A stretch of 64,000 bases of DNA, taken from the IMG/VR virus record IMGVR_UViG_3300025888_000011, positions 1 to 64,000 of that record. One strand, 5' to 3'. The DNA comes from a virus. Numbering within the stretch: the first letter of the stretch is position 1; every line of letters begins with the position of its first letter. Positions 9,001 through 15,000 of this stretch are shown one piece after another. The position numbers are program-made.

Positions 9001-12000
9001 TTCTCATCAGCTAAGATTATCTTTCTTGCATCCTCATATGAATTACAATCTAAAAACATTTCGTAAAGTTCATTAATTGCTTTTATTACTGCCTTATTAT
9101 AATCATAAGGAACTGAATTAAAATCTACAAATTTAGGTTTATTATTAACAACTTCATTATAATAATTATCTCTTTCTAAATCATACCAATCAACTTTTTC
9201 AAATTTAAGATTAGTTAAATTTTTTAAATTTATTTTATAATCTTCTTCAGTTAATTTTTCAATATCATCTTCAACAGATTCTAAAATAAATTTTAATCCT
9301 TTAATATCCTCACCTTCTACATAAAAATCAACAACTCCATTTAATTTATCCTTACAACCATCCACATAACACATCATGCCCTCTATTGATTCATCTAATG
9401 TGTGAAGTTCAAAGTTATGCTCATCTGAATGCTCTTTGCATATATAGCCCCAAGCACCTTTAATATCTTTTATTTCTATTACGTCAGTAATTTTACTTAT
9501 GTCAATTATCTCGCCATTAATCTTCTCAATTGTAAACTCATCAAATATTATACCTTTATATTCTATTTTCATTATTTGAGAACGCCCCTCTTATTTTAAA
9601 TTTTTATCATAGTTTTTTAATATTTTTAAATCTCCTCCAAAAGTATCCATAATAGTTTTTTCATCATAATTAGCTTTATTTTCAATTTCATCAATATAAA
9701 AATGCACCATATACTCAATACTTGTTTTATCCATTTCAATTTCTTGCTGTAAATCATCTTTAATTAATTATTATCCTTATCTTGATATATTTCGTAACCA
9801 TAATCCTTATTCCAAGCATCTAAGACCTCTCCAACTTTTTTATTATCCATAATATCTTTTAATAAAATCTTTTTCATAATAACACTCTCCTTATTATTTT
9901 TTATTTAAATTTTCTTTGTATCTTATGTATTTATTATAATCTATACAATCGTATTTGTCAATAATTTTATATTATTTTATTAAGTATTAATCTTCTATTT
10001 TTGTATAAAATTCAGCACTCGCCCCACACTTAGGACAACTTAAATTTGAAACAATTCCTTCGCCCTCTATTCCATAATCTTCAAATGAAAAATCTCCATC
10101 CCAAATCAATTCAGTTTCTTTACAAAACCAACAATATGTTTTTCTCTCTTCTTTACGTTTATTCATTTTATATCTCTCCTTTTTTATATTTTATAAATCT
10201 ATGTATGAACTAAATAAATCTTTAAAAATTTCTTCTAACATTGGTAAAACAATTCCTCTTCCTGCTCTTTCATATAATTTAGTATTAGATAGTTCTCCTT
10301 CGTCTTTTGATTTATAAAAGTCTCTATCCGAAAATCCTTGTAATCTCCAATATTCCAAAGGTATTAATTTTCTAACAGCATATCCATCATCTACTTGAAC
10401 TAATATCTTTTTAGCATCTTTCCAATCTCTTGCAGATAATGTAGGTGATATGCCATTTATTCCGTAGATCCTAGCATTTTGAGAATATGTACAATCTGTA
10501 TGTGCCACTTCTAAAATATTATTATATGACCCACTTTGTGTTTTATAAAATTTATCAGTAAATTCGAATGATTTATTAACATAATATTTTTTATTAATAT
10601 TTGGTTCTAGTTCTAATATGTCCTTCATTATTGATGTTTTATTATTAGTTGTTGGGAGTTTAAATTGATTATTATCATATTCTTTTAATATTGAAATCAT
10701 AATAACTCTCTCCCTATTTTGTGCTACTCCATAATCTCGACCATTTAAAACTTTCCAATAATTGTTATATCCCATTTCTTCTAATTCTAATATCCATTTT
10801 TCAAAATTAGGCATATGCTTTTTACCTGTTAAATTTTTTACATTTTCCATCATAAGATATTTAGGTTTTATGTAATTAATTATTCTTCTACATTCCCATA
10901 GCAATGATGATTGAGTTTCACTTCCTTCTTCTAGCCCCTTTTGACTGCCTGCTATGCTTATATTTTTACATGGAAAAGAATATGTAAAAAAATCAAATGG
11001 AGGAAGTTTTTTTTCATCAATTAATCTTATATCTCCAAAATTTCTATTTTTGATATGTGCTTTATATAGTTTTTTTATATCTTTATCTGCTTTTGGAATT
11101 TCATATTTCCCCGTAGAAAAATTATATCCTATATTTTTTATTTTAAACTCTTCTAACATTGTCTCTTTACTTGGATATTCAATTTCTAAATTCTCATTAT
11201 GTATAGCGTCATATGACAGTAGAGCATATCTATCTACCTCTGAGATTCCTACCGATTCATAATTAACACCTATATTTCTTAAAGCCATACGTTGGCTACC
11301 TACCCCAGAAAACGATTCAAATATTATTAATTTTTTCAAACAAATACCTCCTATAATTTATTTTTTATATTATTTTATTGCTATGTATCCTTCAAAGTTC
11401 ATCCATCTCCAAAATACATCTATCTTTCTAAATCCTGATTGTTTTAATAAATCTATATTCCAATTTGATGTTACTGGAACTAAAACTCCCTCTAAAGCCA
11501 TTCGCTTTCTTTCTATTTGCTCTTTTGTGTATCCGTTAACTTCTTTAGAATCTAAATATGTATCAATCATAAGTTCATTAATTTCATTACAATTGCCTAA
11601 AACTTTTTCAACCATTATAAAAGCTCCACCATCTGCTAAATTATCATATATATTTTGTATTATATTTTGTCTGTATTCTATAGGTGTAAATTGTATTGTT
11701 AAAACTGATGTTATTAAATTATAGATGTCTACAGGAAAATCTTTTCTCAGATCTATGTTTTTAATATCAACTAATCCATTATTTATATATCCTTTAAATC
11801 TTTTCCTAGCTTCTGTTAACATTGCTTCAGATACATCAATTCCTAAAAAATCACCATATGCTCCATATTTTTTAACAAATCTTTCTAATGATAATCCATT
11901 AGAACATCCTATATCTAATATATTCGCACCATGTACTCTCCTTTTGTTTTTATCTAATACTTTACACCCTAGATTAAATACTGAATCTCTCATAATGTCA

Positions 12001-15000
12001 TATTGAGGTATAGATCTTTCAAGCATATTCTCAAAACAATCCGTAACCTCTTGATTAAATTCCCATTTATCTAATAATACTTCATCTTTCATTTTATTTA
12101 GTCTCCTTTTATTATTTATTTTTATATTATTATAGTAATAAGATGATAAACTTTATATTTTATTGAAATGTAAATTTAGTACACGAGAATTTAATCTAAT
12201 ATATTAAATTTCAATACTTATATATTTTTATATAGCTTTATATTATTGTATCTTTATGTATTAAAATAAATCACATTTATCAGCTTTAAACCCTTCAACA
12301 TATTCATTCCATTGTTCTTTTGTAATTTCTAACTTTTCCATTAAATGCTTTTTACAATAAAATTTACTGGTGTTTCTCCCTAAGAATTTCATATTCATAG
12401 CAAGGACTTCTTTAGACCTAATTCTTTTATTACAATCCTCACAAATATGACTAAAATATTTTTCTGCAACGTTAATATCTAATCCATTTTCATTAGCAAA
12501 TTCTTTTATAACTTCCTTTGTTGGTTCACTTCTTAATAAAGTGCCATTCCATGATTTTAATTTATATTCTTCTTTTGTACAATTCATTATCAAAGCTTTA
12601 TTATTTTTTACGAAATCTTCCTCTAAAATATTTTGCCATCTATTATACATTTTAGGATACCAATATTTATCTAATACCCATGTTGATTTGGTATAAAAAG
12701 GACATGCTATAGAGCACCCAACCCGAGTATAACCCTTTTTATATTTTGAATTAACACTAATATTCCTCCATAATATATAAAGCCATATTTCCTCTTCCGT
12801 CCATTTTCTAATAGGTAAAATACCTTGCCAACCCTCTATCCATTCTATATGTTTCCATTCATCTCCATACCCAGACCTTGCATTGCTTTCTTGATTTCTC
12901 ATTCCCATAAAAAATAAATATTTATGCTCACTATCTAATATATCTGTGGCATTTTCTTTAAATAATCTGCAACAAACCCTTGCAAATCTTGTAGGTACAA
13001 AGTTTGTTCTTTTTTGCCATTGATAAAATCCCTCTTGTGGATTTATAGTTCTAACATTATCTAATGTTTTTATATGTAAATAAGTATCCGAACAATCTAA
13101 AGAGGTATTACTAAATAATGCTTCTATATTTGGAGCTACTTTTCTTGCTAAATGCATAGTAACACTACTATCTTTCCCTCCTGAAGTTAGTATTTTAGGT
13201 ATTAATAGGTTATATTTTAACATTGATTCTTTTATTAATGTTAAAGATTCATTTTCAATTATACTTAAATGTTCCATATTTCTAATAACTGTTTCACCCC
13301 ATGATTCAATTTCAAAAGGCTTATTTTCATAAACAGTTTTTACAGATAATTTTAAATCGTCATCTATAAGTAATCTAATTATTTTATGTATATTTCCCTG
13401 TTTGTCATAAGCTTTTATAATTGCAGTATCTAACCAATAATATCCCTCTGTTAAATTATATTTTTCTATATCTATTCCATTATCCTTTAAAAATGTTAAG
13501 TATTCATTATATATCAAATTCAATACATTCACCTTATCTAATCTTCTTAGCGATTAAATAAGGAAAATACAACTAATTTCCAATAGCAAGACTTTTACAT
13601 GAATAGCATACGCACATTCATCTCACCGCAAATGGTATGTATTTTTATGTCTCTCACCAGTCTTTATACGGTATCCTTTTACGATTAAGGAGTGTAAATC
13701 TTTTAATAAGCCTATTTCAACACCGTATTCAACAACCTACTCTAGTAGGTTTGAACATATTGAATTTTATTTTGCTTGCTCATTTCTATCTCTAACATTG
13801 AAAATATCCAAAAATATTTATCTGTTCTACGTTCAAATCCTTTTATTAGCTTTGGATTATGTCTATTCTTTTTTAATTCCTTGTTGAACGAATCTATTAC
13901 AGTTAGCCCTTGCTCTATATAATAAATTATATTCAAACAATTATTACTATTAAGTTTTGCTATATAATTTCTAACTACCAAATTATCACCTCCTTTATAT
14001 TATTACATTTATAATAAATCATGCTACTTTTTTAGCTTTTATATTATCTTGCATACATTTTATTGTATTATCAATATGATTCTGTATCATCCCTACATAC
14101 TCTGTATCAAGGTTTCTATACATAAATGATATACAACCTGACTCGGTGTCTTTAGTCTCACAAACATCAAATGATACTATATAAGCTATTTTTGTAAGCT
14201 TTATCCTATTTAATTCTTCTAAATTTGTGCCACTATAAAAACTATGAATTTCTCCATTGGTATCAACTATTAAAAATGATTGCTCTTCCATTTCAGAACA
14301 TTGCACATTATTTTTAATAGATTCTTTTGCATATTGTTTACACCATGTTAATCTATTTTTAAGTTCTTTCATTATTAAAGTTTTTTCTTTTTTACTAACT
14401 CTAATTGATTGTAAAAATTGTGTACAAAATATTTGTTTATCTACTCCTTTATTTATGTAATCTAAGTGTATTTGATTAAATCCCTCATTAGTTGGAGTTA
14501 AATTTGTTAATATAGTAAATTCATTTCTTGTCATTTTACTAACCACCCTTTTTAAATATTTTATTTCTCAATATCATTATATACTAAATGATGATAAAAT
14601 GATACACTTATTTTATATTATTTCATTCTCAATTAGAATTATTGCTTAAAAATAGTTTAACTCACCAAAATTACTCTAATTGATAATGTGGTTATTGCTA
14701 CGTTTCTGCCTCCAAAATACTCAATAAAAAGAAGGTTTTATATGGTTATTGTCTAAAAAGAATAGTTTTTATACTATTCTCAATTACTTATTACATCTTA
14801 TCTATTTCAACAACATTAAATCCTTCATCAATGGCTTTCTTAATTAATTCATCTGAATCAATATGCATACAATATACGTTTACTCTTTTATCTTTTGGAA
14901 TAGTCTTACATAACTTTCTTAGTGATGTGTGGACATTACCTTCATAGTCTGCTAAGCAAGTATCTTGATAAAACTCATCTATCTTGTATTCACTTATAAC

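What the first reader, a model, noticed from the sequence alone, without database searches (positions are those of the whole stretch)
10191..12092. Candidate natural DNA 5-carboxymethylcytosine pathway: CmoA-like Cx-SAM synthase next to a C5-MTase with an Asn-to-Arg change in the cofactor pocket
Seen: a CmoA-like gene lies 30 bp upstream of a complete C5-cytosine methyltransferase, and there is no cmoB or tRNA gene in the window. Motif X reads KLYERAGRGIV instead of the usual YKQAGNSI (Arg codon AGA at 10257-10259, residue 361). Motif IV reads PCKN instead of PCQD. Known: CmoA makes carboxy-SAM from SAM and prephenate. Replacing the equivalent motif-X Asn with a basic residue (M.MpeI N374K) lets a C5-MTase use Cx-SAM and form 5-carboxymethylcytosine. 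Inference: the phage makes its own Cx-SAM and carboxymethylates cytosines, probably to evade restriction. I recall a natural phage CmoA-linked example being reported, so the chemistry may not be new, but this clostridial arrangement may be.
Basis: partly seen in the sequence, partly recalled or inferred. Interest (0 to 1): 0.93.

Follow-up and report, generated by a model that had tools for sequence, protein, structure and literature searches.

The report
Phage CmoA plus Arg-pocket cytosine carboxymethyltransferase
A large low-GC phage from peat carries a carboxy-SAM synthase gene next to a DNA cytosine methyltransferase whose cofactor pocket has the arginine that natural and engineered enzymes use to bind carboxy-SAM, so it almost certainly writes 5-carboxymethylcytosine into its DNA; the chemistry was published for another phage in December 2025, and this is a new, probably independently evolved, branch of it.

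Summary
I confirmed the gene coordinates, the 30-bp gap, R361 (AGA at 10257-10259), motif IV PCKN, and the absence of cmoB and of any tRNA gene in the window.

R361 aligns exactly with M.MpeI N374, M.HhaI N304 and R350 of the crystallised phage carboxymethyltransferase SpCmoX. The CmoA-like protein keeps the carboxylate-binding Arg of E. coli CmoA. It also scores higher against the CmoA model than the biochemically validated phage CmoA does.

All 120 closest homologues of the MTase carry PC-K and ER-x-G-R. Eleven of the 12 distinct related loci with this signature have a CmoA-like gene beside the MTase. Three of them also have a CmoY-like amide ligase. None of about 150 sister MTases with the normal Asn has a CmoA-like gene nearby.

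The pathway itself is already published (Yang et al., Nat Commun 2025, PMC12783734), so the chemistry is not new.

Three things are new here:
- The enzyme belongs to the M.MpeI-like lineage, not the SpCmoX lineage. The tree and an AU test (p 0.024) favour an independent origin.
- Most members of this lineage lack the literal SPPC motif used as a filter in the paper.
- This phage shows no CmoY in the 141 kb held.

The adjacent PAPS-reductase-like PP-loop gene is not a conserved partner of the pair.

The parts
11370..12092 (-). cmoA-like gene (240 aa), predicted carboxy-SAM synthase
   Evidence: The best family is TIGR00740 CmoA (3.6e-40, 138 bits). It matches PDB 4gek EcCmoA over its full length at 3.7e-23. 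It is 41-45% identical to CmoA genes of jumbo phages. The validated SpCmoA scores only 115.6 bits on the same model.
11502..11504 (-). codon of CmoA R197, equivalent to E. coli CmoA Arg199, which forms a salt bridge to the carboxylate of Cx-SAM
   Evidence: Alignment to 4gek, site table, and the role of Arg199 as described in PMC3663124.
11340..11369 (-). 30-bp spacer between cmoA and the MTase gene, holding the AGGAGG ribosome-binding site of the MTase; no terminator-like site
   Evidence: Sequence and terminator scan.
10191..11339 (-). M.MpeI-like C5-cytosine transferase (382 aa), predicted DNA cytosine C5-carboxymethyltransferase (CmoX-like)
   Evidence: PF00145 matches at 4e-68. The best solved relative is M.MpeI 4dkj/8c56, at 5e-48 over residues 2-375. 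All 120 closest homologues share PC-K and ER-x-G-R. CmoA linkage is shown.
10257..10259 (-). AGA codon of R361 in motif X, at the position of M.MpeI N374, M.HhaI N304 and SpCmoX R350
   Evidence: the role of R350 is given in PMC12783734.
10965..10970 (-). codons of the catalytic Cys124 and of Lys125 (motif IV reads PC-K where canonical relatives read PC-Q or PC-T)
   Evidence: Lys also follows the catalytic Cys in PaBG CmoX (SPPCKSFS). Any role for the Lys is inferred only.
12261..13532 (-). neighbouring PAPS-reductase-like PP-loop protein (423 aa), with SGGKDS, CC...C-x3-C and C-terminal Cys pairs; probably not part of the pathway
   Evidence: PF01507 matches at 3.6e-25. Invariant residues are listed. 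The fold is closest to PAPS/APS reductase and TtuA. Orthologues lie mostly away from any CmoA or MTase. The gene is absent from 5 CmoA-CmoX phage records. In L096 it sits next to an Asn-type MTase.

Best explanation
This is a two-gene DNA carboxymethylation module of a large phage. The CmoA homologue converts host SAM and prephenate into carboxy-SAM. The co-oriented, probably co-transcribed, M.MpeI-like enzyme 30 bp downstream flips out a target cytosine and attacks C6 with Cys124. It then transfers the carboxymethyl group from carboxy-SAM to C5, with Arg361 of motif X (and possibly Lys125 of motif IV) pairing with the cofactor's extra carboxylate. The product is 5-carboxymethylcytosine in phage DNA. 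It most likely protects the DNA from host nucleases. The sequence homology, the residue equivalences and the gene linkage are shown here. Inferred: the activities themselves, the target sequence (unknown, because recognition loop 2 differs from the CpG loop of M.MpeI), the protective role, and whether 5cxmC is the final product.
For: (1) R361 aligns with M.MpeI N374 and M.HhaI N304 and with SpCmoX R350 within a shared E-R-x-G-R motif. R350 contacts the Cx-SAM carboxylate in crystal structure 8YF3, and N374K lets M.MpeI use Cx-SAM (PMC12783734; PMC13288465). (2) CmoA keeps Y39, D62, G64, S66, D89, D117, F137, E164 and R199 of EcCmoA. It scores 138 bits on TIGR00740, against 115.6 bits for the biochemically validated SpCmoA. 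(3) All 120 nearest homologues (44-62% identity) have PC-K and ER-x-G-R. (4) Eleven of 12 distinct Arg-type loci have a gene whose best family is CmoA beside the MTase. None of about 150 Asn-type sister MTases in 66 viral and 79 genomic loci has one within 8 kb. (5) Three Arg-type loci also carry a CmoY-like Asn_synthase gene in the same cluster, one of them in the S-B43 gene order CmoA-CmoY-MTase. This only makes sense if the MTase installs a carboxyl group. (6) One related cluster carries a true DAHP synthase next to CmoA, which fits a demand for prephenate. (7) The record has no CmoB and no other C5-MTase.
Against: No biochemistry or modification data exist for this phage or for any member of this MpeI-like clade. 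CmoA scores below the curated equivalog cut-off (138 vs 193 bits), and Asn90 and Asn132 of EcCmoA are Val here, as they are non-Asn in SpCmoA. The enzyme is only 25% identical to SpCmoX and lacks the literal SPPC motif. One relative (L009) has the same MTase with no CmoA in the 973 nt upstream before the contig ends. The record holds no chorismate mutase, so prephenate must come from an unidentified host. In SpCmoX the R350N mutant was inactive with both cofactors, so the Arg alone does not define specificity.
Confidence: 0.8

Rival explanations
1. 5cxmC is only an intermediate in this phage. A further enzyme converts the carboxyl handle into an amide or another derivative. That enzyme could be a CmoY-type ligase on the unsequenced quarter of the genome, or the adjacent Fe-S PP-loop (PAPS-reductase-like) protein acting as an adenylating enzyme.
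For: In S-B43 the final base is the glycine amide and no free 5cxmC is found. Three MpeI-like Arg-type loci carry CmoY-like genes. The record is only 74% complete. The PP-loop gene lies 168 bp upstream on the same strand with no terminator-like site between. PP-loop ATPases adenylate carboxylates or bases; QueC and Asn synthetase are examples (background knowledge).
Against: There is no Asn_synthase match in the 141 kb held. Orthologues of the PP-loop protein (55-67% identity) sit in related phages without an adjacent CmoA or MTase, and once next to an Asn-type MTase. The gene is absent from five CmoA-CmoX phage records, two of them at least 90% complete. It has no sequence similarity to SpCmoY. 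Its Cys pattern and fold resemble APS reductase and the TtuA sulfur enzymes, not amide ligases. None of the other flanking ORFs recurs at related loci.
Confidence: 0.2
2. The MTase is an ordinary SAM-dependent 5mC methylase. The CmoA-like protein serves another purpose, such as draining host SAM to blunt SAM-dependent defences.
For: All catalytic C5-MTase motifs are intact. M.MpeI N374K still uses SAM to some extent (background from PMC13288465). Yang et al. raise SAM depletion by CmoA as a possibility.
Against: This does not explain the strict pairing of the Arg/Lys pocket changes with CmoA, nor their absence from every Asn-type sister. It does not explain the CmoY-like ligases in the same clusters. 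Wild-type SpCmoX accepts only Cx-SAM.
Confidence: 0.07
3. CmoA supplies Cx-SAM for tRNA wobble modification (cmo5U), for example of the phage's own tRNA-Thr(UGU). Its position next to the MTase is a coincidence.
For: The record encodes one tRNA-Thr(UGU) at 65182-65257. tRNA-Thr(UGU) is among the cmo5U-type tRNAs of E. coli (background knowledge).
Against: There is no CmoB in the record. The tRNA lies 53 kb from cmoA. Of 14 control genomes only E. coli passes the CmoA cut-off, and Bacillus subtilis gives no match at all, so a low-GC Bacillota host probably lacks the cmo5U pathway. The CmoA-MTase linkage recurs across many loci.
Confidence: 0.03

Closest known systems
CmoA-CmoX(-CmoY) 5-carboxymethylcytosine system of Synechococcus phage S-B43 (Yang et al., Nat Commun 2025, PMC12783734; PDB 8YF3)
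   Same: A phage-borne CmoA sits next to a C5-MTase homologue with Arg at the motif-X Asn position, inside a shared E-R-x-G-R motif. There is no CmoB. Relatives of the window enzyme also carry CmoY-like ligases, once in the same order CmoA-CmoY-MTase (L012).
   Different: The MTases are only 25% identical. The window enzyme belongs to the M.MpeI-like family and lies outside the SpCmoX/PaBG branch on the tree, and one clade holding all Arg enzymes is rejected at p 0.024. Motif IV is SFPC-K rather than SPPC-S. No CmoY or ParB is found in the 141 kb held. The CmoA is of the EcCmoA-like K-R-x-x-L-E-G type, whereas SpCmoA has its Arg four residues later. The source is a peat metagenome and the genome has 25% GC, so this is not a marine cyanophage.
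M.MpeI (CpG-specific C5-MTase of Mycoplasma penetrans; PDB 4DKJ) and its engineered carboxymethyltransferase N374K
   Same: It is the best solved relative, alignable over the full length (5e-48). The natural Arg sits exactly at N374, the residue whose change to Lys or Arg creates Cx-SAM use.
   Different: Motif IV changes from Q136/D137 to K/N. The orphan-guanine filler Q141 becomes Ala. Recognition loop 2 (G322-A323-N324-S325-R326) is replaced by a longer, unrelated loop (one search read with PMC10899764), so CpG specificity cannot be assumed. This is a natural enzyme, genetically coupled to its own cofactor synthase.
E. coli CmoA (Cx-SAM synthase for tRNA cmo5U; PDB 4GEK/4IWN)
   Same: Same fold and length, with Arg199 and most cofactor-contacting residues kept.
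   Different: Identity is about 30%, and the score is below the NCBIfam equivalog cut-off. N90 and N132 are replaced by Val. There is no partner CmoB. Here the consumer of the cofactor is a DNA enzyme.

Membership tests
CmoA, carboxy-SAM synthase (TIGR00740) | Full-length homology, with CmoA as the best-scoring family | tested here: met
   TIGR00740 matches at 3.6e-40 (138.1 bits) over residues 7-240, and the next family is 30 orders of magnitude weaker. The score is below the equivalog cut-off of 193.3, but the validated SpCmoA scores only 115.6.
CmoA, carboxy-SAM synthase (TIGR00740) | Arg199 (E. coli numbering), which forms a salt bridge to the carboxylate of Cx-SAM | tested here: met
   R197 aligns with Arg199; the role of the residue is given in PMC3663124.
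CmoA, carboxy-SAM synthase (TIGR00740) | Cofactor-contacting residues Y39, D62, G64, S66, D89, N90, D117, N132, F137 and E164 | tested here: inconclusive
   Eight of the ten are kept. N90 and N132 are Val here, and the validated SpCmoA has Leu at both positions.
CmoA, carboxy-SAM synthase (TIGR00740) | Makes Cx-SAM from SAM and prephenate | not testable with these tools
   This needs an enzyme assay.
CmoX, DNA cytosine C5-carboxymethyltransferase (Yang 2025) | C5-MTase catalytic core: P-C nucleophile, E-N-V, Q-x-R-x-R | tested here: met
   PF00745 is not the model used; the match is PF00145 at 4e-68. The core motifs are FPC124, ENV at 165 and QNRER at 207.
CmoX, DNA cytosine C5-carboxymethyltransferase (Yang 2025) | Arg at the position of SpCmoX R350 (HhaI N304), which binds the carboxymethyl group | tested here: met
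   R361.
CmoX, DNA cytosine C5-carboxymethyltransferase (Yang 2025) | The literal S-P-P-C motif that the authors used as a filter | tested here: not met
   The window reads S-F-P-C. Only 2 of the 120 closest homologues read SPPC. This is the authors' search filter, not a mechanistic requirement.
CmoX, DNA cytosine C5-carboxymethyltransferase (Yang 2025) | Genomic linkage to a phage cmoA | tested here: met
   The gap is 30 bp in the window. Eleven of 12 related Arg-type loci are linked to a CmoA-like gene, against 0 of about 150 Asn-type MTases.
CmoX, DNA cytosine C5-carboxymethyltransferase (Yang 2025) | Common descent with SpCmoX (same clade) | tested here: not met
   Identity is 25%. The enzyme is nested among Asn-type MpeI-like MTases, with SpCmoX and PaBG CmoX outside. 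AU test p = 0.024 against a single clade. It works like CmoX but is probably a separate lineage.
CmoX, DNA cytosine C5-carboxymethyltransferase (Yang 2025) | Forms 5cxmC from Cx-SAM | not testable with these tools
   This needs LC-MS or an in vitro assay.
CmoY, ATP-dependent 5cxmC amide ligase (Asn-synthetase-like) | An Asn_synthase-type PP-loop ligase encoded with CmoA and CmoX | tested here: not met
   There is no PF00733 match in the 141-kb record, which is 74% complete. The neighbouring PAPS-reductase-like protein shows no similarity to SpCmoY.
M.MpeI/M.SssI-like CpG-specific C5-MTases | Recognition loops that read CpG (F302; G322-A323-N324-S325-R326) and Asn in motif X | tested here: not met
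   An aromatic residue is kept at the F302 position (Tyr), but loop 2 is replaced and longer, and motif X has Arg (one search read). The enzyme belongs to this fold family, but the specificity and cofactor of M.MpeI are not implied.

The most novel reading that the evidence does not exclude
The M.MpeI-like Arg/Lys-pocket enzymes are a second, independently evolved lineage of natural DNA carboxymethyltransferases. In this phage, which shows no CmoY, the carboxyl handle is further converted by the adjacent Fe-S PP-loop (PAPS-reductase-like) enzyme into a cytosine derivative that has not yet been described.
Probability: 0.08. Interest if true: 0.75.

Novelty: new member of a known kind. Interest (0 to 1): 0.4.

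Why it matters
The finding extends the newly described natural 5-carboxymethylcytosine pathway from marine cyanophages and Gram-negative jumbo phages to large low-GC phages. It also shows that the same pocket solution (Arg in motif X, often Lys after the catalytic Cys) appears in a different C5-MTase lineage, the very family that was engineered by hand (M.MpeI N374K) for DM-Seq. Natural enzymes of this clade have pockets shaped by evolution for carboxy-SAM. They could therefore be better or differently specific carboxymethyltransferases for epigenome sequencing tools. The signature PC-K plus E-R-x-G-R with an adjacent cmoA gives a simple rule for annotation. The literal SPPC filter of the 2025 survey would miss most of these enzymes.

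Tried and rejected
- A megablast of the 3.3-kb region against phage records found nothing. A single-protein scan of IMG/VR also found no relative. Relatives appeared only when an alignment was used as query.
- I considered the PAPS-reductase-like neighbour as a CmoY analogue and largely rejected it. It has no similarity to SpCmoY. Its orthologues are not linked to CmoA or CmoX. Its fold is nearest to PAPS/APS reductases and TtuA.
- The small zinc-ribbon ORF (9987-10166) and the other flanking ORFs have no counterpart at any related locus.
- The promoter scan gave no more sites than chance (29 found, 33 expected), and no terminator-like site lies on the gene strand. Co-transcription is therefore only inferred from gene orientation and spacing.
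- The records behind assembly loci could not be searched genome-wide.
- No RNA holder was listed for this DNA, so expression could not be examined.
- The supplements of Yang et al. hold no list that would show whether this clade was among their 5,615 candidates.
- I did not try to infer the target sequence from genome word counts. CpG is depleted (observed/expected 0.46) and many palindromes are avoided, but this is not specific evidence.
- No model of the MTase was made, because coordinates cannot be inspected here. The position of Lys125 relative to the cofactor remains untested.
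Full report
**What is there**

The window is the first 64 kb of a 141,152-bp IMG/VR virus record. The record is linear and estimated 74% complete. It has about 25% GC, and the genes of the first 42 kb all lie on the minus strand. 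The only sequencing run that holds the stretch is a peat metagenome.

Two adjacent minus-strand ORFs match the finding exactly. One is a 240-aa gene at 11370-12092. The other is a 382-aa gene at 10191-11339. They are separated by 30 bp that carry an AGGAGG site 8 nt before the TTG start.

The downstream protein is a complete C5-cytosine methyltransferase (PF00145, 4e-68). The best family for the upstream protein is the carboxy-SAM synthase CmoA (TIGR00740, 3.6e-40, 138 bits). Every other methyltransferase family scores far lower.

There is no tRNA gene in the window. There is no CmoB, no second C5-MTase, no Asn-synthetase-like ligase, no ParB and no chorismate mutase anywhere in the 141 kb. 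One tRNA-Thr(UGU) lies just past the window end.

**The residue claims**

The best solved relative of the MTase is M.MpeI itself (4dkj/8c56, 5e-48), and it aligns over residues 2-375. In that alignment A-G-R361-G-I lies on A-G-N374-S-I of M.MpeI. In the M.HhaI alignment it lies on F-G-N304-S-V. The codon is AGA at 10257-10259. Motif IV reads S-F-P-C-K-N-I-S, against S-F-P-C-Q-D-L-S in M.MpeI.

A direct BLAST against the crystallised phage enzyme SpCmoX was run on the sequence taken from GenBank MN018232. It gives only 25% identity, but it aligns Y-E-R-A-G-R361 with T-E-R-V-G-R350.

For CmoA, the alignment to E. coli CmoA (4gek) was read together with the residue list of Byrne et al. (PMC3663124). 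It shows that Y39, D62, G64, S66, D89, D117, F137, E164 and the carboxylate-binding R199 are kept. N90 and N132 are Val. The biochemically validated SpCmoA also lacks those two Asn residues, and it scores lower on the CmoA model (115.6 bits). The sub-threshold score is therefore not a reason for doubt.

**What is already known**

Yang et al. (Nat Commun, Dec 2025; PMC12783734) showed the following for Synechococcus phage S-B43:
- CmoA makes Cx-SAM.
- The C5-MTase homologue CmoX uses only Cx-SAM to make 5-carboxymethylcytosine at GC sites.
- R350 contacts the carboxymethyl group in the crystal structure.
- An Asn-synthetase-like ligase, CmoY, adds glycine.
- 5cxmC blocks HhaI.

They also reported 5,615 candidate CmoX sequences, selected for SPPC plus R350. 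Of these, 4,257 came with a CmoA and 2,251 with a ligase.

**Does the Arg go with cmoA in this family?**

The 120 closest homologues of the window MTase (44-62% identity) all carry Arg in motif X, mostly as ERAGRGIV. All carry Lys after the catalytic Cys. Only two read SPPC.

I then fetched 80 IMG/VR loci, 80 loci from species-representative genomes and 10 assembly loci, and classified every MTase ORF in them. There are twelve distinct Arg-type loci besides the window.

| MTase type | Loci or ORFs examined | CmoA-like gene nearby |
|---|---|---|
| Arg-type (distinct loci besides the window) | 12 | 11, directly adjacent or in the same small cluster |
| Asn-type sister MTases (AGNSIV, PC-Q/T-D) | about 150 ORFs | 0 within 8 kb |

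- In the eleven linked loci, the neighbouring gene's best family is CmoA (116-160 bits where it was scanned).
- The twelfth locus (L009) ends 973 nt upstream of the MTase, and no CmoA is visible there.
- Only one of the 80 genome loci is Arg-type. It lies on a 5.5-kb contig and also has a CmoA-like gene.
- Three Arg-type clusters also contain a CmoY-like Asn_synthase ORF. In L012 the order is CmoA-CmoY-MTase, as in S-B43. L013 and L188 carry the ORF as well.
- One cluster (L007) has three tandem Arg-type MTases, a CmoA and a bona fide DAHP synthase.

These loci are related by descent, so the counts are not independent trials. The pattern is nonetheless clean, and it is hard to explain unless these enzymes use Cx-SAM.

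**Relationship to SpCmoX**

I built a 49-row maximum-likelihood tree (quick search, LG+C20). In it the MpeI-like Arg enzymes form one well-supported clade (SH-aLRT 99). That clade sits inside a group of Asn-type MpeI-like phage MTases. SpCmoX and the PaBG CmoX lie outside, across a long, well-supported branch.

Forcing all Arg enzymes into one clade costs 33.7 log-likelihood units, with AU p = 0.024. This favours two origins of the Arg pocket. The result depends on long branches and limited sampling, so I treat it as probable rather than shown.

The two lineages share E-R-x-G-R. Lys also follows the catalytic Cys in PaBG CmoX, whereas S-B43 has Ser. This looks like a recurrent solution to binding the extra carboxylate.

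CmoA genes come in two forms:
- One form keeps the E. coli Arg (K-R-x-x-L-E-G). The window, PaBG and the Erwinia phages have this form.
- The other form has its Arg four residues later (K-N-x-S-L-R-G). SpCmoA is of this form.

**Target and end product**

Recognition loop 1 keeps an aromatic residue at the position of M.MpeI F302. Loop 2 reads the guanine of CpG in M.MpeI (PMC10899764). Here it is replaced by a longer, unrelated loop, and the orphan-base filler Q141 is Ala. The target sequence therefore cannot be inferred.

The genome avoids many short palindromes: GATC occurs 8 times against 332 expected, and GCGC, GGCC and GCNGC occur 0 times against 43 expected. CpG is at 0.46 of expectation.

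No CmoY is present in the sequence held. The final base may therefore be 5cxmC itself, unless a ligase lies on the missing quarter of the genome.

**The PP-loop neighbour**

The 423-aa protein at 12261-13532 is a PAPS-reductase-family protein. It has an intact SGGKDS PP-loop, an invariant C-C...C-x3-C pattern and C-terminal Cys pairs. Its predicted structure has a mean pLDDT of 83. The model is closest to PAPS/APS reductases, to FAD synthase PAPS domains and to the Fe-S thiolase TtuA.

Several results argue against a role in this pathway:
- Its orthologues (55-67% identity) are common in related large phages, but they mostly lie far from any MTase or CmoA.
- One orthologue lies next to an Asn-type MTase.
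- Five phage records that carry CmoA and an Arg-type MTase lack the gene. Two of those records are at least 90% complete.

It is therefore a conserved gene of this phage group that happens to lie next to the pair. A role in modifying 5cxmC is not excluded, but nothing supports it beyond adjacency.

**Verdict**

The system is a new member of the published CmoA-CmoX kind. It is notable for belonging to the M.MpeI-like lineage, which probably recruited the same pocket change independently. It is also notable for escaping the literal motif filter of the published survey, and for lacking a CmoY in the sequence available. No activity has been measured.

Noticed in passing
L007:2100-7086 (ENA scaffold, relative of the window phage): The cluster reads DHH, Arg-type MTase, DAHP synthase (TIGR01361, 369 bits, above cut-off), Arg-type MTase, CmoA, Arg-type MTase. 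A phage-borne first enzyme of the shikimate pathway next to the prephenate-consuming CmoA suggests that the phage boosts its precursor supply. Three tandem carboxymethyltransferase paralogues suggest several target motifs.
   Followed up: partly
genome record position 65182-65257 (1.2 kb past the window end): The single tRNA gene of the record is tRNA-Thr(UGU). In E. coli this is one of the tRNAs that carry cmo5U-type wobble bases. There is no CmoB in the record.
   Followed up: partly
whole 141-kb record: Short palindromes are avoided to an extreme degree: GATC 8 against 332 expected, GCGC, GGCC and GCNGC 0 against 43, CCGG 2 against 43, CCWGG 1 against 32, and CpG at 0.46 of expectation.
   Followed up: no
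window 14791-15498 (-): A metallo-beta-lactamase-fold protein resembles the anti-Pycsar nuclease Apyc1 (PF23023, 2e-11, 44 bits, below the cut-off of 50).
   Followed up: no
window 12261-13532 (-) and loci L093-L101: The PAPS-reductase-like PP-loop protein with a C-C...C-x3-C pattern is widespread (55-67% identity) in large phage or plasmid-like contigs. It often lies just downstream of an actin-like ALP_N partition gene. Its function is unknown.
   Followed up: partly
L092, L003, L005, L007, L012, L105, L188, L190 versus the window, L011, L103, L104, L102: There are two CmoA subtypes. In one the carboxylate-binding Arg is at the E. coli position (K-R-x-x-L-E-G). In the other that position is Asn or Glu and an Arg appears four residues later (K-N-x-S-L-R-G). 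The validated SpCmoA is of the second type.
   Followed up: partly
L104:4968-9846 (Erwinia phage pEa_SNUABM_3) and L102:4971-9515 (Alcaligenes phage Afa-NA1): In the Erwinia jumbo phage, CmoA is followed by a 420-aa protein with no family, a DUF1611 protein, an alanine-racemase-like protein and an Asn_synthase-like ligase, with no recognisable C5-MTase. In Afa-NA1, CmoA lies 2.5 kb from a D12-class N6-adenine MTase, with no C5-MTase in the 10 kb viewed. These may be other uses of Cx-SAM.
   Followed up: no
L009:1-2059: The same MTase protein as in L007 sits directly after the DHH gene, without the MTase-DAHPS-MTase-CmoA segment. This is a natural variant in which the adjacent CmoA is missing, or lies elsewhere on a contig that ends 973 nt upstream.
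   Followed up: partly
window 4991-6211 (-): A transposase-like ORF (phrog_506, 4e-51) lies inside the phage's early region.
   Followed up: no
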